Source: Naegleria gruberi (lineage: Eukaryota). Taken from it: DNA of 64,000 nucleotides. This document shows, piece by piece, positions 622-52,949 of the stretch. Each line of letters begins with the position of its first letter. The first letter of the stretch is position 1. Below the pieces are notes generated by a model. It worked only from the letters and a program-made list of their open reading frames with translations. It ran no database searches and was not told the DNA's origin. The position numbers were made by a program, and so were the translations under genes. The stretch lies in assembly GCA_000004985.1 (NCBI GenBank), contig GG738871.1. The stretch is one strand, 5' to 3'.

Positions 622-694
622 CGCCCACCGTGGGGGTCGAACCCACGACCACAAGGTTAAGAGCCTTGCGCTCTACCGACTGAGCTAGACGGGC
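622..694 (-). tRNA. tRNA-Lys (anticodon CTT)
   Basis: Reverse complement reads GCCCGTCTAGCTCAGTCGGTAGAGCGCAAGGCTCTTAACCTTGTGGTCGTGGGTTCGACCCCCACGGTGGGCG: 7-bp acceptor stem, D-loop AGCTCAGTCGGTAGAGC, anticodon loop CTCTTAA, T-loop GGTTCGACCCC; near-identical to metazoan/fungal tRNA-Lys-CTT. Confidence 0.9.
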
Positions 695-7684: not shown

Positions 7685-9121
7685 ATGTCAACCAGTGTTA
7701 CCATAACCTCGAATCCAACAACAACATCTACAACCCAACAACCTATTCGAAAGCGTTCGACTGCTTCTCGAGATGGAAGTGGAGGTATCGAAGTGAATAC
7801 ATGTTGTGGCTCCGTCTCCATGTCCAATACCAAATGTCTGGTTGTAGTTGTTCTCCTTCTCAATATTATTGCATTCTGTGTACTGCTGGCTCTCTTAATT
7901 GATATTTATATTGGAAAAGTCAACCAAAACTTGGAATCCATCACCAAGAGAGGTGATGCTCTATTATATTCTGAAATTCTTTCTTGTAGTTCGAGGATGG
8001 CTGCTTCTTCCTCCAATGAGAATATTACCAAATTCTTCCTCGACAGATATGATGAATATCATCCAAAATATATGGCTCTGATGAATGAAATCATTAATTT
8101 GGTTCCTGCAAGTGCAGTTGGTCAAATTCAAAGTGAAACCAATGAGGCCAACAATATTACAAGGGATGAATCTGTTGTAATGGAGGAAGAGGCCATTAGT
8201 TTAGTAAAGGCAGGTGAAAAGGATGATGCATTGGAAATTTTAGATGGTTCTGAATATGCATCTGAAAAGGAGGATTATGATTCTGATTTAAAGGGATATA
8301 CAGATTATATTCGTACTGAAGAATTGAAAAAGGATGCTCAGACCAATGATAGAACATTGGCTTGTTTGATTCTCATATGTTGTTTGATGGCATTAGTTTT
8401 ACCTGTTGTGGTCATTTCACTGGTGGCCTCCTTCAGTAGAGAAAAGCAAGAACGTGCCAAATTGGAAAGAGCCAAAGCAATTGTTTTGAATGATACAATG
8501 GCAGATCCAAAACTTAAAGAGCTTTTCAAAAAGCATTGTGAGCAAGAGTTCAGTATGGAGAATTTCCTCCTCTTGGAAAGAATTGCTGAATACAAGAGTT
8601 TGTGTGAAAAGAGTTTTGACATTCAAGTATTCCTCTATGATTCTAGTTCTGATGAAGTCTCAACAAATTCTGGAAACACAACCAAGACAAGTGTTTCAAC
8701 ATCAACATCAAATTCTTATTCCAAGGATCCAAGCAAAAAGCCATCAGGCTACAATGAGAAGGATTTGGAATTGGTTGAAAAGCAAAAGAGAGATTTGGCC
8801 CAGAATGTCTTTGACCAATTCTTGAACATTAATGGTATCATGCCTGTCAATGTGAATAAGAAGATTGCTGATGATATTCTGCTTGAAATTCAAACAGCAA
8901 GCAATAGTTTCCAAAATTTAACTTCTCCAACTGATATGGAACTGGGTTCAATTGGTGCTAACACTATCCTCTTGTCAGATTCATTATTTGATGTTCTGGA
9001 GAATGAGGCTCAAATTGTAATGTTAGATACTCACACTAGGTTCAAACAATCACTTGCATTCCAAAAGAAAATGAAAATCGACAGCATTAAGCAAAAGATG
9101 AATAATAATAAGAAAAAGTAG
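7685..9121 (+). CDS. membrane-anchored RGS-domain protein
   Basis: Two hydrophobic helices (CLVVVVLLLNIIAFCVLLALLIDIYIG; LACLILICCLMALVLPVVVISLVASF); RGS signature ..LKELFKKHCEQEFSMENFLLLERIAEYKSL.. Confidence 0.6.
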   Translation: MSTSVTITSNPTTTSTTQQPIRKRSTASRDGSGGIEVNTCCGSVSMSNTKCLVVVVLLLNIIAFCVLLALLIDIYIGKVNQNLESITKRGDALLYSEILSCSSRMAASSSNENITKFFLDRYDEYHPKYMALMNEIINLVPASAVGQIQSETNEANNITRDESVVMEEEAISLVKAGEKDDALEILDGSEYASEKEDYDSDLKGYTDYIRTEELKKDAQTNDRTLACLILICCLMALVLPVVVISLVASFSREKQERAKLERAKAIVLNDTMADPKLKELFKKHCEQEFSMENFLLLERIAEYKSLCEKSFDIQVFLYDSSSDEVSTNSGNTTKTSVSTSTSNSYSKDPSKKPSGYNEKDLELVEKQKRDLAQNVFDQFLNINGIMPVNVNKKIADDILLEIQTASNSFQNLTSPTDMELGSIGANTILLSDSLFDVLENEAQIVMLDTHTRFKQSLAFQKKMKIDSIKQKMNNNKKK

Positions 9122-9226: not shown

Positions 9227-10567
9227 ATGGAAAGAAGAGGCAACAATAAAAAGTTGACAACCAACAACATTAAACCTTCATTCAAAAAAAACATGTCGAA
9301 GTCGCTTGTTGTTGTTGTTTCGTTCACAGCTGTTGTGTTACTCCTTGCATGCAGTGTATCTGTGATTACATGTTTGTATCCATCCCAAGTTGTTGATATC
9401 GAGAATTGGTATCTGACCCTTCCAATTGGTGATGTTAAAGACCCTACCGACATTTATCAACCAACATTAGCAACCTATTCCATTGATCCATACTTTGTTG
9501 TTGGACCAAATAATAATTCTATTCGTTTTCGTTCAGTCATTTTCAATGAAAGTGTTACAACTGTTGGTTCAAAATATCCAAGATCAGAACTTAGAGAAAT
9601 GGACCCAATCAATCCAGCCAAAGTCAAGATTTCATGGAATAACACAGTTGGTGTCCATACCATGATTATTGACCAAGCCATCACTCACTTGCCAATCACA
9701 AGAGACAGAGTCATAGCAGGTCAAATCCACGATGATAATGAATTCATCTTTACCATCACATTATCTGGCACAACTCTTTACATTAATGCTGCCAATAAGG
9801 CAACTGCTAAGGTCATTACCAAAACCTATCAATTAGGTACAATCTTTAGACTCAAAATTGAAGCACTCAATGGTACTACCAATTTCTACTATAATGACAT
9901 GTCCACTCCAATTTATACTCATCCATTGGTATTTAAGAATTCATACTTTAAGGCAGGTTGTTATGCTCAATCAAATTGTACTGTGGAAGGATCATTGTGT
10001 GGAGATTCAAATAATTATGCAGAAGTGTTGATTTACAATTTGACTACTACTCATGATTATTCATCATCACCATCGTACGTAAATAATTCATCATCCTCAT
10101 CTAATGGAACAATAATTAATAATAATAATGGAACAATTAATTCCAATTCAACCAATAATAATGGTACAATAATTAATAATAATAATGGAACCACTCCGAA
10201 TAATAACAACAATGGTACTATCAATAATAACAATGGAACAATCAATTCAAATTCTACAAATAATTCAACCAATAATAACAATGGAACAATAATTAATAAT
10301 GGTACAACTCCCGATAGTAATAACAATAGCACTAATAATAATAATGGTACAATTATTGATAATGGAGGCTCATCCAATAATAATTCAACAAATACTCCAA
10401 AGGCTTCAACTTCTAATCGGGTTGTTGTGAATATGGCTACTAGTTCTTTCATTCCTCATCATTCATTTGCTAATATTCTGCTCCGATTCATCCTAATGCC
10501 AATACTAGTTTCCTACATTGTCTATTCGCTGGCTTTCCATGATAGTAGCATCTTTCCCACCAATTAA
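9227..10567 (+). CDS. secreted/GPI-anchor-like protein with PL7 alginate-lyase-fold (Alginate_lyase2-like) domain and Asn/Thr-rich repeat tail
   Basis: N-terminal hydrophobic anchor/signal; PL7 catalytic motifs in correct order and spacing: RSELRE (R), QIHD (Q,H), YFKAGCYAQS (Y); then NNNGTIN-type repeats; hydrophobic C-terminus. Confidence 0.6.
   Translation: MERRGNNKKLTTNNIKPSFKKNMSKSLVVVVSFTAVVLLLACSVSVITCLYPSQVVDIENWYLTLPIGDVKDPTDIYQPTLATYSIDPYFVVGPNNNSIRFRSVIFNESVTTVGSKYPRSELREMDPINPAKVKISWNNTVGVHTMIIDQAITHLPITRDRVIAGQIHDDNEFIFTITLSGTTLYINAANKATAKVITKTYQLGTIFRLKIEALNGTTNFYYNDMSTPIYTHPLVFKNSYFKAGCYAQSNCTVEGSLCGDSNNYAEVLIYNLTTTHDYSSSPSYVNNSSSSSNGTIINNNNGTINSNSTNNNGTIINNNNGTTPNNNNNGTINNNNGTINSNSTNNSTNNNNGTIINNGTTPDSNNNSTNNNNGTIIDNGGSSNNNSTNTPKASTSNRVVVNMATSSFIPHHSFANILLRFILMPILVSYIVYSLAFHDSSIFPTN
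10080..10400 (+). repeat. imperfect tandem coding repeats encoding Asn-rich (S/T-N-N-N-G-T-I-N) low-complexity tract
   Basis: Visible reiteration of aataataataatggaacaat(t/a)aat... units; antisense frame gives the artefactual L-rich ORF 10057..10452. Confidence 0.7.
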
Positions 10568-11235: not shown

Positions 11236-12894
11236 TTAAAAATAGGCTGTTTCATTTTCCAAGCCAGTGACTGTCTGAATATCACCACCTTCAGTCTTGT
11301 AGACAAGCATGAAACTCTTGAGAACATTTGGCCAAGTATCTCCAAAATTAGAATTGGTGACATGAATAGAACCAGTGTTGGCCAATTGTCTAGCTCTTTG
11401 AGTCAAATCTTGAGTTCCATAAGTAAAGCAAATAATCTTTTCTGGGGAGTGGACATAGCCAAGGTGCTTCTTTGATGACACATTAACATGTTGACCCTCT
11501 TGACATGTAACAAGATAATAATCACTTTCACTCTTCAAAACCATTGAGAAGGACTTTGGCCAACCAGGTAAACTATCTTCAAAGTTATGGTTATTGGCTC
11601 CAATATTAAAATTATTTCCACCACTTAAATCTTTTGAGTCCTCAGTTACATCCACAGGTCCATAAGCAGCTGCAAGAATGGACAGATTAGATGAATCAAC
11701 TGGAGCAACAGGTTGAGTAGTTGGTTTTGATTGTGGTGGACCATTGACATTCACAACACATTCTTTTTGATACAAGTGATGATTAAGAATAATCTTGATA
11801 CTATCATCGTGCCACATTGCTCCCTTTTCAGTAGTGGATGGACAAAATACTTGAGAATTTCCTGGTTCCTTAACACAAAAGAAGAGATTGAAATTGTCAA
11901 ATCCTCTTGCCATTATACCAGTTGAAGTGTGATCACAACCAAAACAATGACCCAATTCGTGCATTGAAGCACCAATACCAGTAGCACAGTTGGCATAATA
12001 AGTTCCACGACCAGCACTGTCATCTCTCAAATGTGACTTATCGACAGAAGTGTCATTCATAAAGGAAGCTTGGATCTTATCAACAGAATTAGGATATGAG
12101 TACATATTGACATCAGCCCACATTGCCAAATATCCCCCACCCAAGGCGGCTCCCAATTTAGTCTTATTCAATACAGGATCATAATAATGTCCACTAGTTA
12201 TACAATAATAAACAGTTTGTGGAGTGTGTTTTGAGCTATTGACCAATTGATTATGAATATGGCTATATGCAGCATTACCACCATCATTCATCCAATCATT
12301 ACTCAAACTGGCAAATTCCTCTCTCGTATACTTTTCAGAGTAAACAACATCAATGAGTGGCATATTCTTGTGGTGAGGATCAACTTCTAATGGGAATGTT
12401 CTTCTACCGTCCTGAACCTTCTCAGCACAGAATGTTTGCATCATCAACAAGGCTACTTGCATTCTCTTAATAGCCTCACTTGAATCATTCTTTTCGTGTG
12501 GCATATTTCTGAAAGAACCATCATGATCCTTGCAAACAAACCAAATTCCCTTAACCTTTGAACCACTTCCTGAACCAGCTACATTGATCATATTCGGATC
12601 ATAATTAACCTTAAAGTGCAAATCAGAGTCCTTTCCCGATTGACTCGAGAGGTGAATATTATTCTCTCCTTCCTCCAACAAGACGAGAGCCTTGAAAAAA
12701 GTTTCATAGATAGGGAATTGATATTGTGTTCTCTTTCCGGTCATGGCAGAGACACAACTCACAAATAAAACCTCACCGACATCACCCTTTGATGATGGAC
12801 ACTGACCAAATAACCTGATCAAGCTGTAGCCGAGAGAAGAACCACTCTCATGATTATGAACAATGATTTGAGGCATTATTTTTGTTAAGTTCAT
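11236..12894 (-). CDS. metzincin zinc metallopeptidase, M43 (pappalysin/ulilysin/cytophagalysin)-like
   Basis: HELGHCFGCDHTSTGIMARGF = HExxHxxGxxH zinc site followed by Met-turn; HE(I/L)GHx(L/F)GxxHT pattern typical of M43. Confidence 0.5.
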   Translation of the reverse strand: MNLTKIMPQIIVHNHESGSSLGYSLIRLFGQCPSSKGDVGEVLFVSCVSAMTGKRTQYQFPIYETFFKALVLLEEGENNIHLSSQSGKDSDLHFKVNYDPNMINVAGSGSGSKVKGIWFVCKDHDGSFRNMPHEKNDSSEAIKRMQVALLMMQTFCAEKVQDGRRTFPLEVDPHHKNMPLIDVVYSEKYTREEFASLSNDWMNDGGNAAYSHIHNQLVNSSKHTPQTVYYCITSGHYYDPVLNKTKLGAALGGGYLAMWADVNMYSYPNSVDKIQASFMNDTSVDKSHLRDDSAGRGTYYANCATGIGASMHELGHCFGCDHTSTGIMARGFDNFNLFFCVKEPGNSQVFCPSTTEKGAMWHDDSIKIILNHHLYQKECVVNVNGPPQSKPTTQPVAPVDSSNLSILAAAYGPVDVTEDSKDLSGGNNFNIGANNHNFEDSLPGWPKSFSMVLKSESDYYLVTCQEGQHVNVSSKKHLGYVHSPEKIICFTYGTQDLTQRARQLANTGSIHVTNSNFGDTWPNVLKSFMLVYKTEGGDIQTVTGLENETAYF

Positions 12895-17834: not shown

Positions 17835-19146
17835 TATTTGTTTGCAAGGAATGGAATATCTTACTGAATTGAAACAATCAACCATGTGAATCATCTAATA
17901 TTTGAATTTCTGTTGTTATTAGAGCGAGGAAACACACTAGGTACTTCCTCACGTATCAAAAATTTTGAAGGAGGGCAATAGCCAATGGCAATTGACCATA
18001 TACAGGACAGCTTTTCAGAGTGCAAGGAAAAGCGTCGACTGCATAACTTTCCAACCTTCTTGATCATTGGAAAGTCCTTCAAGGTAAGTATGAAGATTTA
18101 AGAGAGGCAAAGTGGGAATATATTTGAAGGCATTTTAATCTACAATTTTGAAATAAAAATTATGGTAGTAATTTTTAATTAAAAAGCCATTCGATATCAT
18201 TGGGCAAGTTATTTGCTCATCTTCAGTCTCAATCCAAAAATTATGATTAAGTATTGGATTAACATGATTAAGCAACTCAGAAAGAGTGTAAACAAATAAT
18301 GAATCAAAAAGCTTATTTATTTTCTTTCCATCACATGATCATTAATTTACTAATAATTAACAATCAAAACACAAACATTCATAATGATCGCCATCATCAT
18401 CAAATTAATATTTTACATTAAAGCTAGTAGACCGAGTTGATTCAACCGGTTGGGTATTAAACAAGGAGATTTGATCCTTGTCGTGATGTTTTCTCTCAAC
18501 TGGTTGATCATCCGAAGGTTGACAAATTTCTCCCTTGATGGTTCTTCCTACTCCACTGAAGGGTTTGAAAGGATGTTGTTGTTGAGGTTCTGAAGAATCA
18601 TTAGAAGAAGAGGAAGGAGGAGAGTGATGCTCCGGATCATCGAAAGGATGCCTATTCATATTCTCTCTTCAATAGATGATATATTTGTTTTATTAGAAAT
18701 GATTATTATTGGAGGGAGAAGAGTTTGTAATTTAATAATTTGGGAAAATAGCTTGTTATGTTCAATAGATGAAATTTCAATTTACAAGAATGGTATGTTT
18801 CTTTAATTGTAATTCTCGTCAACATGCTATCTATTCGAAAGTGGTAAATATTAATTGTGCTTAGTACTCAATTTTAAAAGTGGTAACACCTTACCCCGCC
18901 GCGGGTATTAGTTCACTAATTACTTGTGAAATTCGTCAATATCTTTGTGATGGGGACCTTAAAAGAAAGGTTGTTAACTTTTGTATTGTGGTCTGTGGGT
19001 AAATTGACGAGACAGGTATGGACAGGTTGCCAAATTTACAACCAGCATGAAAGGATAATAGAAGAGGTTGAAACACTTAATTTTCATACCAACAGAAAAA
19101 AACAAATCCATTCGAAACATATTTCATCACTCTCTCGGATACTACT

Positions 19147-52372: not shown

Positions 52373-52491
52373 GGCTACGGCCATATCACGATGAATGCAC
52401 CTCATCCCGTCCGATTTGAGAAGTTAAGCATCGTCGAGCCACATCAGTACTGAGGTTGGAGACAACTTGGGAACCTGTGGTGCTGTAGTCT
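52373..52491 (+). rRNA. 5S ribosomal RNA
   Basis: GGCTACGGCCATATCACGATGAATGCACCTCATCCCGTCCGATTTGAGAAGTTAAGCATCGTCGAGCC...GGGAACCTGTGGTGCTGTAGTC aligns with the eukaryotic 5S consensus (GCCTACGGCCATACCACCCTGAACGCGCCCGATCTCGTCTGATCTCGGAAGCTAAGCAGGGTCGGGCC...); helix I pairs 5' GGCTACGGC with 3' GCTGTAGTC. Confidence 0.85.
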
Positions 52492-52878: not shown

Positions 52879-52949
52879 TGCGTCGACCGGGAATTGAACC
52901 CGGGTCACGGCGATGGCAACGCCGTATTCTACCACTAAACCATCGACGC
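52879..52949 (-). tRNA. tRNA-Gly (anticodon GCC)
   Basis: Reverse complement GCGTCGATGGTTTAGTGGTAGAATACGGCGTTGCCATCGCCGTGACCCGGGTTCAATTCCCGGTCGACGCA; anticodon loop TTGCCAT; close to canonical eukaryotic tRNA-Gly-GCC. Confidence 0.9.

What the first reader, a model, noticed from the sequence alone, without database searches (positions are those of the whole stretch)
9227..10567. PL7 alginate-lyase-fold catalytic motifs in a secreted, Asn-repeat, GPI-like protein of a eukaryote
The N-terminal 250 aa carry the three PL7 family hallmarks in order and with family-typical spacing: RSELRE, QIHD and YFKAGCYAQS. These hold the catalytic Arg, Gln/His and Tyr of the beta-jelly-roll lyases. PL7 is overwhelmingly bacterial, and eukaryotic copies are sporadic. 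Here it is fused to a eukaryote-style Asn/Thr-rich repeat stalk and a hydrophobic C-terminal tail suggestive of GPI anchoring. That implies a cell-surface uronan-directed lyase or binding module in this organism. It may be an old horizontal acquisition that has been domesticated.
Basis: partly seen in the sequence, partly recalled or inferred. Interest (0 to 1): 0.55.

Follow-up and report, generated by a model that had tools for sequence, protein, structure and literature searches.

The report
Naegleria surface-anchored PL7 alginate lyase
This is a real nuclear gene of the soil amoeba Naegleria gruberi for a bacterial-type alginate-cutting enzyme (PL7 lyase), probably tethered to the cell surface on a sugar-coated stalk to help the amoeba eat slime-protected bacteria. 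It is a solid but fairly ordinary case of a gene borrowed from bacteria.

Summary
ORF 9227..10567 (+) is Naegleria gruberi NAEGRDRAFT_68135 (XP_002676505.1 / D2VH95), which public records call only 'predicted protein'.

- **Family:** residues 49-278 are a full-length PL7 domain. Pfam PF08787 scores 107 bits against a cutoff of 29.7. PDB 1uai (polyguluronate lyase AlyPG) matches at E=5e-48. The AlphaFold model fits 1uai at TM 0.95 and 1.6 Å.
- **Active site:** Arg119, Gln166, His168 and Tyr246 align with R72, Q117, H119 and Y195 of AlyPG.
- **Genuinely eukaryotic:** the scaffold is 417 kb, the neighbours include actin, U1 snRNA and 5S rRNA, and codon usage matches the host.
- **Paralogs:** N. 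gruberi has at least three, on separate scaffolds. Among 174 relatives examined, only the four Naegleria-clade proteins end in a hydrophobic GPI-type tail.
- **Stalk:** only this copy has the 125-residue stalk, which is 39% Asn and carries 19 N-glycosylation sequons.
- **Relatives:** an unidentified heterolobosean has three secreted copies. Everything else is soil or freshwater bacteria at 49% identity or less.

The most likely reading is an old bacterial acquisition turned into a surface-displayed, probably G/MG-preferring, alginate endolyase for feeding on alginate-coated prey. Activity, anchor type and role are inferred. This is a new member of a known kind, of moderate to low interest.

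The parts
9227..10567 (+). Complete single-exon ORF (446 aa including the stop codon), = N. gruberi NAEGRDRAFT_68135 / XP_002676505.1 / UniProt D2VH95
9227..9292 (+). Optional 22-aa basic N-terminal extension (MERRGNNKKLTTNNIKPSFKKN). The public model starts at the next ATG (Met23, nt 9293), and paralogs have short n-regions consistent with Met23.
9293..9370 (+). Predicted signal peptide (MSKSLVVVVSFTAVVLLLACSVSVIT), with Kyte-Doolittle hydropathy up to 2.7. It ends where the mature N-terminus of bacterial homologues and of the 1uai chain begins (C-x-YPxQ).
   Evidence: no signal-peptide predictor was available
9371..10060 (+). PL7 beta-jelly-roll catalytic domain (aa 49-278)
   Evidence: Pfam 107 bits; PDB 1uai E=5e-48; AlphaFold pLDDT above 90; Foldseek TM 0.95 and 1.6 Å to 1uai
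9581..9598 (+). SA3 block RSELRE (aa 119-124). Arg119 aligns with Arg72 of AlyPG.
9722..9733 (+). SA5 block QIHD (aa 166-169). Gln166 and His168 align with Gln117 and His119 of AlyPG. His is the proton acceptor in PL7 (PMC8618178).
9944..9973 (+). SA4 block YFKAGCYAQS (aa 240-249). Tyr246 aligns with Tyr195 of AlyPG. Tyr is the proton donor in PL7 (PMC8618178).
10067..10441 (+). Asn/Ser/Thr-rich stalk (aa 281-405): 49 Asn of 125 residues, 19 N-x-S/T sequons (mostly NGT and NST), built from imperfect 12-21-nt tandem repeats, predicted disordered
   Evidence: pLDDT below 50
10466..10537 (+). C-terminal hydrophobic segment FANILLRFILMPILVSYIVYSLAF (aa 414-437). It is preceded by small residues (M-A-T-S-S) and an 8-residue spacer, and followed by 9 residues (HDSSIFPTN). 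It is either a GPI-attachment signal or a C-terminal membrane anchor.
   Evidence: (helix)

Best explanation
**What it is.** NAEGRDRAFT_68135 is a genuine nuclear gene of Naegleria gruberi. It descends from a bacterial PL7 alginate lyase of the AlyPG type, which the literature places in subfamily 3.

**How it probably works.**
1. A signal peptide sends the protein into the secretory pathway.
2. The 230-residue beta-jelly-roll domain cleaves polyuronate chains by beta-elimination. His168 abstracts the C5 proton, Tyr246 protonates the leaving O4, and Arg119 and Gln166 neutralise and position the carboxylate.
3. The QIH signature and the closest characterised relatives suggest a preference for G- or MG-containing alginate, in an endolytic mode.
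4. The C-terminal hydrophobic signal keeps the enzyme on the outer face of the plasma membrane, and therefore inside nascent phagosomes. Attachment is most likely by a GPI anchor.
5. A 125-residue, heavily N-glycosylated Asn-rich stalk holds the domain away from the membrane.

**Likely role.** The enzyme loosens the alginate capsule or biofilm matrix of bacterial prey such as Azotobacter and Pseudomonas, so that the amoeba can reach, engulf or digest them.

**Family context.** It belongs to a small family of three or four Naegleria paralogs. All carry anchor tails, and one (P0200) has QVH instead of QIH.

**Shown:** family membership, fold, intact catalytic residues, eukaryotic genomic context, the paralog family, clade-specific tails and bacterial affinity.

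**Inferred:** enzymatic activity, substrate preference, glycosylation, anchor chemistry and feeding role.
For: **Family and fold.**
- Pfam full-length hit.
- PDB 1uai E=5e-48 and 5zqi E=2e-44, with all three motif blocks aligned.
- 16 invariant family columns are all kept.
- AlphaFold pLDDT is above 90 over the domain.
- Foldseek's top 43 hits are all PL7 alginate or glucuronan lyases, followed by two PL18 alginate lyases.

**Mechanism and specificity from the literature.**
- PL7 uses His as proton acceptor and Tyr as donor, and has the blocks RXEXR, QXH and YXKAGXYXQ. QIH goes with polyG/polyMG and QVH with polyM, with known exceptions (PMC8618178).
- AlyPG-like Isoptericola AlyA is a subfamily 3, endolytic enzyme that prefers G (PMC6117692).

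**A real eukaryotic gene.**
- 417-kb scaffold.
- Neighbours include actin, RCC1, LRR and BTB genes, plus U1 snRNA and 5S rRNA.
- RSCU r=0.88 and GC3 0.30, like the neighbouring genes.

**Paralogs.** P0003 and P0200 lie on other large scaffolds.

**Anchor.**
- P0200, P0002 and P0303 end in hydrophobic runs at the very C-terminus, preceded by small residues.
- Only these four of 174 motif-bearing relatives have such a tail. The others end about 29 residues after the SA4 block.

**Bacterial origin.**
- At least 384 bacterial loci, mostly soil Actinomycetota, Patescibacteria and Bacteroidota, at 34-49% identity.
- The Naegleria clade has 99-100% bootstrap support inside that radiation.

**Precedent for the role.** A predicted alginate lyase of Acanthamoeba castellanii has been proposed to open alginate biofilms (PMC7641382, PMC10761080).
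Against: - There is no biochemical, expression or localisation data.
- The QIH/QVH rule has documented exceptions.
- Pseudomonas alginate lacks G-blocks and is acetylated (from my own knowledge). A strictly G-specific enzyme would therefore fit Azotobacter better than Pseudomonas.
- This protein's tail is followed by 9 non-hydrophobic residues and contains an Arg. That is atypical for a GPI signal and also compatible with a single-pass C-terminal anchor.
- No GPI or signal-peptide predictor could be run.
- No Naegleria species other than N. gruberi, and neither Willaertia nor Acrasis, appeared among the listed relatives. The gene is therefore not needed for bacterivory in general.
- Whether N. 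gruberi can metabolise unsaturated uronates was not checked.
Confidence: 0.6

Rival explanations
1. The enzyme is the same, but it is held by a conventional C-terminal transmembrane helix (type I, with a 9-residue cytosolic stub), or it is shed or secreted. It is not GPI-anchored.
For: - 9 residues (HDSSIFPTN) follow the 24-residue hydrophobic run, which contains Arg420.
- AlphaFold models the run as one continuous helix.
- The homologues in the other heterolobosean (P0004, P0005, P0199) are plain secreted forms.
Against: - The three closest relatives have hydrophobic runs that end at the last residue. That is the classical GPI pattern.
- The stub carries no positive charge, unlike typical cytosolic flanks.
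- Small residues (A-T-S-S) lie about 9 residues before the hydrophobic run, as expected for an omega site.
Confidence: 0.25
2. It is an active PL7 lyase, but its natural substrate is not prey alginate. It could be another polyuronate such as a glucuronan or another bacterial or fungal acidic exopolysaccharide. It could also be an endogenous Naegleria polymer, for example material remodelled during encystment or excystment.
For: - PL7 also contains beta-glucuronan lyases (PDB 7nde appears among the fold hits).
- This subfamily is abundant in non-marine Actinomycetota and Patescibacteria, whose substrates are mostly untested.
- Surface tethering would also suit wall remodelling.
Against: - The closest characterised enzymes, AlyPG (1uai) and AlgAT5 (5zqi), were aligned at E=5e-48 and 2e-44 with all three motif blocks conserved. 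Both are alginate lyases.
- The glucuronan lyase 7nde is only 21% identical to the model.
- I know of no polyuronate in Naegleria (from my own knowledge, not tested here).
Confidence: 0.15
3. It is a catalytically dead, lectin-like alginate- or uronan-binding adhesin that uses the PL7 fold only to grip prey.
For: The surface display on a stalk resembles adhesin architecture.
Against: - All invariant catalytic and substrate-binding residues of the family are retained in this protein and in its paralogs.
- No substitution occurs at Arg, Gln, His or Tyr.
Confidence: 0.03
4. It is a bacterial contaminant or an assembly artefact, not a Naegleria gene.
For: All homologues outside Heterolobosea are bacterial.
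Against: - The gene sits inside a 417-kb scaffold between eukaryotic genes and near a U1 snRNA.
- GC and codon usage match the host.
- The Asn-repeat stalk and tail are fused in frame.
- Paralogs lie on two other large scaffolds.
- No bacterial sequence is more than 49% identical.
Confidence: 0.01

Closest known systems
AlyPG / ALY-1 polyguluronate lyase of Corynebacterium sp. ALY-1 (PDB 1UAI; PL7, placed in subfamily 3 with Isoptericola AlyA, PMC6117692), and AlgAT5 (PDB 5ZQI)
   Same: - Full-length alignment at E=5e-48.
- Identical RSELREM, QIHD and YFKAGxYxQ blocks, with R72, Q117, H119 and Y195 all conserved.
- The same Cys pattern at the mature N-terminus and in the NC...C loop.
- The model superposes at TM 0.95 and 1.6 Å.
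   Different: - The bacterial enzymes are small soluble secreted proteins of about 220-270 aa.
- The Naegleria protein adds a eukaryotic signal peptide, a 125-aa N-glycosylation-rich stalk and a C-terminal membrane or GPI signal.
- The Naegleria clade also has two 2-residue insertions, after RFRxxI and after REM.
Characterised eukaryotic PL7 enzymes: fungal PsAlg7A/7C (Paradendryphiella salina), Trichoderma parareesei PL7A glucuronan lyase, red-alga PyAly (Pyropia yezoensis)
   Same: They share the family, the beta-jelly-roll fold and a sporadic eukaryotic distribution (PMC8618178 reference list).
   Different: - They are only 12-21% identical to the Naegleria model in structural alignment, with TM 0.73-0.79. 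They belong to other PL7 lineages and so reflect independent histories.
- As far as I know they are soluble enzymes of marine or plant-associated organisms, not membrane-tethered proteins of a bacterivorous amoeba.
Predicted alginate lyase of Acanthamoeba castellanii
   Same: It is a free-living bacterivorous amoeba with a bacterial-type alginate lyase gene. The proposed role is to open alginate biofilms (PMC7641382, PMC10761080).
   Different: - It belongs to a different eukaryotic supergroup.
- Its family and architecture were not examined here, and it too is uncharacterised.
- No relation to the Naegleria genes was shown.
PL7 paralogs of an unidentified heterolobosean (JGI sample 3300062347: P0004, P0005, P0199)
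   Same: - They carry a eukaryotic signal peptide and QIHD.
- There are three paralogs, on AT-rich contigs with eukaryotic neighbours.
- A neighbouring AdipoR-like gene has its best named matches in Willaertia and Acrasis.
   Different: - They are short secreted forms with no stalk or tail.
- They are 61-66% identical to two bacterial-type relatives compared (P0014 and P0006), but only 46-52% to the Naegleria clade.
- Monophyly with the Naegleria clade gets only 16-22% bootstrap support.

Membership tests
Polysaccharide lyase family 7 (CAZy PL7; Pfam PF08787 Alginate_lyase2) | Significant full-length match to the family HMM | tested here: met
   E=1.5e-30, 107.2 bits against a gathering score of 29.7, profile positions 1-225 of 225. 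The paralogs score 117-128 bits.
Polysaccharide lyase family 7 (CAZy PL7; Pfam PF08787 Alginate_lyase2) | Beta-jelly-roll fold superposable on solved PL7 structures | tested here: met
   The AlphaFold domain has pLDDT above 90. Foldseek gives 1uai TM 0.95 at 1.6 Å and 5zqi TM 0.94.
Polysaccharide lyase family 7 (CAZy PL7; Pfam PF08787 Alginate_lyase2) | Three conserved blocks in order, R-x-E-x-R, Q-x-H and Y-x-K-A-G-x-Y-x-Q, with the catalytic His and Tyr and the Arg and Gln | tested here: met
   RSELRE at 119-124, QIHD at 166-169 and YFKAGCYAQS at 240-249. They align to R72, Q117, H119 and Y195 of 1uai and are invariant in 75 sequences. The block definition comes from PMC8618178.
Polysaccharide lyase family 7 (CAZy PL7; Pfam PF08787 Alginate_lyase2) | Beta-eliminative cleavage of alginate or another polyuronate | not testable with these tools
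   This needs a recombinant enzyme assay.
PL7 subfamily 3 (AlyPG-like) | Clusters with AlyPG, Streptomyces and Isoptericola enzymes in a subfamily classification (dbCAN-sub or a CAZy tree) | tested here: inconclusive
   The best PDB relative is AlyPG. Isoptericola, Streptomyces and other actinomycete loci are among the best 80 bacterial relatives. No formal subfamily HMM or tree with CAZy reference sequences was available.
GPI-anchored surface protein | N-terminal cleavable signal peptide | tested here: inconclusive
   From Met23 there is a short polar n-region, a 16-20-residue hydrophobic core, then SVSVITC before the conserved mature start YPSQ. No SignalP-type predictor was available. If Met1 is used instead, the n-region is 25 residues long.
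GPI-anchored surface protein | C-terminal signal: a small-residue omega site, a polar spacer of about 8 residues, and a hydrophobic run reaching the C-terminus | tested here: inconclusive
   This protein has A-T-S-S, then the spacer FIPHHS, then a 24-residue hydrophobic run, but 9 more residues follow. Sister proteins P0200, P0002 and P0303 meet the pattern fully.
GPI-anchored surface protein | Actual GPI attachment (PI-PLC release, lipid labelling) | not testable with these tools
   Experimental test only.
Gene acquired by horizontal transfer from bacteria | Nested among bacterial sequences, patchy in eukaryotes, and integrated and adapted in the host genome | tested here: met
   - At least 384 bacterial loci and 3203 proteins at E<=1e-20.
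- The only eukaryote-type relatives are heterolobosean.
- The NJ tree places the clade inside the bacterial radiation, although deep nodes are weakly supported.
- Codon usage and neighbours are those of the host.
- The donor lineage and the number of transfers are unresolved.

The most novel reading that the evidence does not exclude
Naegleria has turned a bacterial PL7 lyase into a dedicated, GPI-anchored 'biofilm-grazing' surface enzyme family, an architecture not described for any polysaccharide lyase.

- Complementary paralogs (QIH types, and a QVH type in P0200) would together cover the G-, MG- and M-blocks of alginate.
- The long N-glycosylated stalk of this copy would project the active site through the amoeba's own glycocalyx into the prey matrix.
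- The family would then determine which mucoid bacteria (Azotobacter cysts, alginate-overproducing Pseudomonas) the amoeba can eat.
Probability: 0.3. Interest if true: 0.55.

Novelty: new member of a known kind. Interest (0 to 1): 0.33.

Why it matters
- **Predation and biofilms.** Alginate capsules and biofilm matrices are classic bacterial defences against protozoan grazing. A surface-displayed alginate lyase in a model free-living amoeba would be a concrete, testable counter-measure.
- **Gene transfer.** It would be a clean example of a bacterial gene rebuilt with eukaryotic trafficking parts: a signal peptide, an N-glycan stalk and a lipid anchor.
- **Enzyme resource.** It offers a eukaryotic, non-marine branch of the AlyPG-type PL7 clade (literature subfamily 3) for enzyme mining.
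- **Annotation fixes.**
  - Three 'predicted proteins' of N. gruberi can be named PL7 lyases.
  - The model of XP_002672853.1 appears truncated at its 3' end.

Tried and rejected
- **NCBIfam scan** of this protein and four relatives found no family.
- **Foldseek afdb50** was not installed.
- **Viral contigs:** the best match was only 35% identical, so there is no sign of a phage or giant-virus vector.
- **P0003 locus:** an exact look-up found nothing on record, so its truncation was judged from the variant P0303, which clusters with it at ≥90% identity.
- **Literature:** nothing was found on a Naegleria PL7 or alginate lyase.
  - Searches combined Naegleria with alginate lyase, polysaccharide lyase and CAZy/LGT, and also used the accession numbers.
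  - The Acanthamoeba genome paper and its supplements do not mention alginate.
- **One or two transfers into Heterolobosea:** NJ with 300-500 bootstraps on 216 columns left this open. All five eukaryote-type sequences were monophyletic in only 16-22% of replicates. No maximum-likelihood software was available.
- **Bacterial contamination** was considered and rejected.
- **A dead-enzyme lectin** was considered and rejected.
- **Introns:** none was needed, since the ORF covers the whole Pfam model without a break.
Full report
**1.

The window carries an uninterrupted ORF at 9227..10567 on the + strand, 446 aa.

The match is far beyond chance:
- Pfam PF08787 (Alginate_lyase2) matches aa 56-276 over the whole profile (1-225 of 225), at E=1.5e-30 and 107 bits against a gathering score of 29.7.
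- phmmer against all PDB chains gives the PL7 polyguluronate lyase AlyPG/ALY-1 (1uai) at E=5.4e-48 and AlgAT5 (5zqi) at E=1.9e-44.

Counting along the 1uai alignment, four active-site positions line up. That AlyPG's active site consists of these four residues is from my memory. The general roles of His (proton acceptor) and Tyr (proton donor) in PL7, and the three conserved blocks, are stated in PMC8618178.

| This ORF | AlyPG (1uai) |
|---|---|
| Arg119 | Arg72 |
| Gln166 | Gln117 |
| His168 | His119 |
| Tyr246 | Tyr195 |

In a 75-sequence family alignment these are exactly the invariant columns.

An AlphaFold2 model built on that alignment has pLDDT above 90 across the catalytic domain. It superposes on 1uai at TM 0.95 and 1.6 Å, and on 5zqi at TM 0.94. 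The top 43 Foldseek hits are PL7 alginate or glucuronan lyases, followed by two PL18 alginate lyases.

**2. Whose gene it is**

From Met23 the protein is 100% identical to 'predicted protein [Naegleria gruberi]', also known as EFC43761.1, XP_002676505.1, UniProt D2VH95 and NAEGRDRAFT_68135. It lies on a 417,575-bp scaffold.

The window is plainly eukaryotic nuclear DNA:
- An actin-family gene, RCC1, TPR, LRR and BTB proteins and a PF12044 metallopeptidase flank the gene.
- A U1 snRNA, a 5S rRNA and two tRNAs are present.

The catalytic-domain DNA has GC 0.36 and GC3 0.30, inside the range of neighbouring genes (GC3 0.27-0.35). Its codon usage correlates with theirs at r=0.88. Contamination is excluded, and the gene is fully adapted to its host.

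**3. Anatomy**

- **Start codon.** The public model starts at Met23 (nt 9293). The first in-frame ATG (9227) would add 22 basic residues. Only 105 bp separate it from the stop codon of the upstream gene. The paralogs have short n-regions, which favours Met23.
- **Signal peptide.** From Met23 the N-terminus looks like a signal peptide: MSKS, then a hydrophobic core, then SVSVITC. It ends where the bacterial mature enzymes begin, at C-x-YPxQ.
- **Stalk.** After the catalytic domain (aa 49-278) comes a 125-residue stalk (aa 281-405).
  - It has 49 Asn, 19 Ser and 19 Thr, with 19 N-x-S/T sequons, mostly NGT and NST.
  - It is encoded by imperfect 12-21-nt tandem repeats.
  - AlphaFold models it with no confident structure (pLDDT below 50).
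- **Tail.** A 24-residue hydrophobic segment follows (aa 414-437). AlphaFold models it as a helix. Small residues and an 8-residue spacer precede it, and 9 residues (HDSSIFPTN) follow it.

**4. It is one member of a small Naegleria family with a clade-specific anchor**

A first search found a second N. gruberi protein, P0003 (XP_002672853.1), and a metagenomic relative, P0002. A profile search added a third N. gruberi protein, P0200 (XP_002678504.1), on another scaffold of about 500 kb.

P0002 comes from the same metagenome that holds a contig encoding a protein 100% identical to P0200. It is therefore probably from a Naegleria too.

| Protein | C-terminus |
|---|---|
| P0200 | ...SDGVSFGTSGLIQLVYSCLLVFLFVIFA |
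| P0002 | ...NDVSAVRFGLVNLVIVCLVFAFMALF |
| P0303 | ...NSSTIGMLIFFLFTFFLF |

P0303 clusters with P0003 at ≥90% identity and is an environmental variant of it. All three tails are classical GPI-type signals: the hydrophobic run reaches the last residue and small residues lie upstream. P0303 also restores the last beta-strand, so the annotated 247-aa P0003 model looks truncated at its 3' end.

Among 174 relatives that carry the SA4 motif, only these four proteins have a C-terminal hydrophobic tail. The others end about 29 residues after the motif.

Membrane tethering is therefore a conserved innovation of the Naegleria clade. This protein's own tail, with its 9 extra residues and an internal Arg, remains ambiguous between a GPI signal and a transmembrane anchor. 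The long Asn-rich stalk is unique to this copy.

P0200 reads QVHD, whereas 185 of 190 relatives read QIH. By the imperfect literature rule (PMC8618178), this hints that the paralogs differ in M/G preference.

**5. Relatives and origin**

The next-closest proteins, P0004, P0005 and P0199, are 46-52% identical to the Naegleria-clade proteins. All three come from one JGI sample.
- Their contigs are AT-rich (GC 0.34-0.36).
- The neighbours are of eukaryotic type: protein kinase, F-box, Kelch, RRM, metacaspase, AP-5 sigma, RGS, START, P450 and LIM.
- An adjacent AdipoR-like gene has its best named matches in Willaertia magna (48%) and Acrasis kona (45%).

The organism is therefore another heterolobosean. 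Its three copies are short secreted forms.

Everything else is bacterial. At least 384 loci were found among species-representative genomes. The best 80 are soil Actinomycetota, Patescibacteria, Niastella and other Bacteroidota, and uncultured Gammaproteobacteria, at 34-49% identity. A profile search found 3203 proteins at E<=1e-20. Viral contigs hold nothing closer than 35%.

Neighbour-joining trees with bootstrap gave these results:

| Grouping | Bootstrap support |
|---|---|
| Naegleria clade | 99-100% |
| P0004 + P0005 | 97% |
| All five eukaryote-type sequences together | 16-22% |

The second group is 61-66% identical to two bacterial-type relatives compared (P0014 and P0006), and it lacks two 2-residue insertions shared by the Naegleria clade. 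One old transfer followed by fast evolution in Naegleria cannot be separated from two independent transfers. The donor lineage is also unresolved.

No Naegleria species other than N. gruberi, and neither Willaertia nor Acrasis, appeared among the relatives listed. The database does hold Willaertia and Acrasis proteins.

**6. How it most likely works**

- **Shown:** PL7 membership, the fold, an intact active site, secretory-type termini, the clade-specific tail and bacterial ancestry.
- **Inferred:** everything in the model below.

The protein is exported and remains on the outer leaflet, and hence inside phagosomes, by a GPI or C-terminal anchor. It is projected on a heavily N-glycosylated stalk. 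It cleaves alginate endolytically by beta-elimination, probably with a G/MG preference. That preference follows from QIH and from its nearest characterised relatives: AlyPG, and the G-preferring subfamily 3 Isoptericola AlyA (PMC6117692).

The ecological reading is that the enzyme helps a bacterivorous soil amoeba breach the alginate capsule or matrix of prey. This parallels the proposal made for an uncharacterised Acanthamoeba castellanii alginate lyase (PMC7641382, PMC10761080).

Rival readings:

| Rival | Confidence | Main point |
|---|---|---|
| Transmembrane anchor or shedding instead of GPI | 0.25 | The 9-residue stub and internal Arg are atypical for GPI |
| Non-alginate or endogenous uronan substrate | 0.15 | PL7 also includes glucuronan lyases, but 7nde is only 21% identical |
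| Inactive lectin | 0.03 | Contradicted by complete catalytic conservation |
| Contamination | 0.01 | Refuted by genomic context and codon usage |

**7. Comparison and novelty**

This is a bona fide PL7 member by every feature testable in silico. It is closest to the AlyPG-type enzymes, which the literature places in subfamily 3, although formal subfamily assignment was not run.

Eukaryotic PL7 enzymes are already known from fungi and a red alga. Those are only 12-21% identical in structural alignment and represent other lineages.

New here:
- There is a heterolobosean branch of the AlyPG-type clade.
- Naegleria has a small paralog family.
- The architecture of stalk plus anchor is, to my knowledge, undescribed for polysaccharide lyases.

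No paper in the searchable library mentions these genes. Public databases already attach the Pfam domain to them.

I rate it a new member of a known kind. It is a sound, testable case of horizontal transfer and domestication with modest surprise value.

Noticed in passing
N. gruberi paralog XP_002672853.1 (P0003), not in this window: The annotated 247-aa model ends abruptly (…TSFVEIVYGNI) and lacks the last beta-strand. P0303 (291 aa), an environmental variant that clusters with it at ≥90% identity, continues with …DNYAEVQIYNVSTTHDY and a GPI-type tail. The public gene model is probably wrong at its 3' end.
   Followed up: partly
N. gruberi paralog XP_002678504.1 (P0200), not in this window: This third PL7 paralog has QVHD instead of QIHD and KYARSELREM instead of YPRSELREM. 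Only 5 of 190 relatives read QVH. The paralogs may therefore differ in M-block versus G-block preference.
   Followed up: partly
L002, L003 and L087 (JGI sample 3300062347): Three AT-rich contigs (12.6-147 kb) come from an unidentified heterolobosean-like eukaryote. Each carries a short secreted PL7 gene that is 61-66% identical to the bacterial-type relatives P0014 and P0006. This may be a second, more recent acquisition.
   Followed up: partly
window 17924-18091 (-): U1 spliceosomal snRNA gene (Rfam RF00003, 70.4 bits, just above the gathering score of 69.5).
   Followed up: no
window 52373-52491 (+) and 52879-52949 (-): A 5S rRNA gene (105 bits) lies about 390 bp from a tRNA-Gly(GCC) gene. 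A tRNA-Lys(CTT) gene lies at 622-694 (-).
   Followed up: no
window 7685-9121 (+): The upstream neighbour (478 aa) has two hydrophobic segments and a sub-threshold RGS-domain match (19.9 bits against a gathering score of 23.9), interrupted by a Ser/Thr-rich insert. It may be a membrane-bound RGS protein. Its stop codon lies only 105 bp before the first ATG of the PL7 ORF.
   Followed up: partly
window 11236-12894 (-): The convergent downstream neighbour is a PF12044 'Metallopep' putative zinc peptidase (202 bits, aa 9-378). It has a C-terminal extension of about 170 aa with no Pfam match.
   Followed up: no
P0201-P0204, P0211, P0212 and similar bacterial relatives: Many of the closest bacterial homologues come from Patescibacteria (Levy-, Roizman-, Davies-, Moran- and Nomurabacteria). 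Several have an N-terminal membrane anchor followed by a Pro/Thr-rich linker, so they are surface-tethered PL7 enzymes in ultra-small bacteria. Their substrate is unknown.
   Followed up: no
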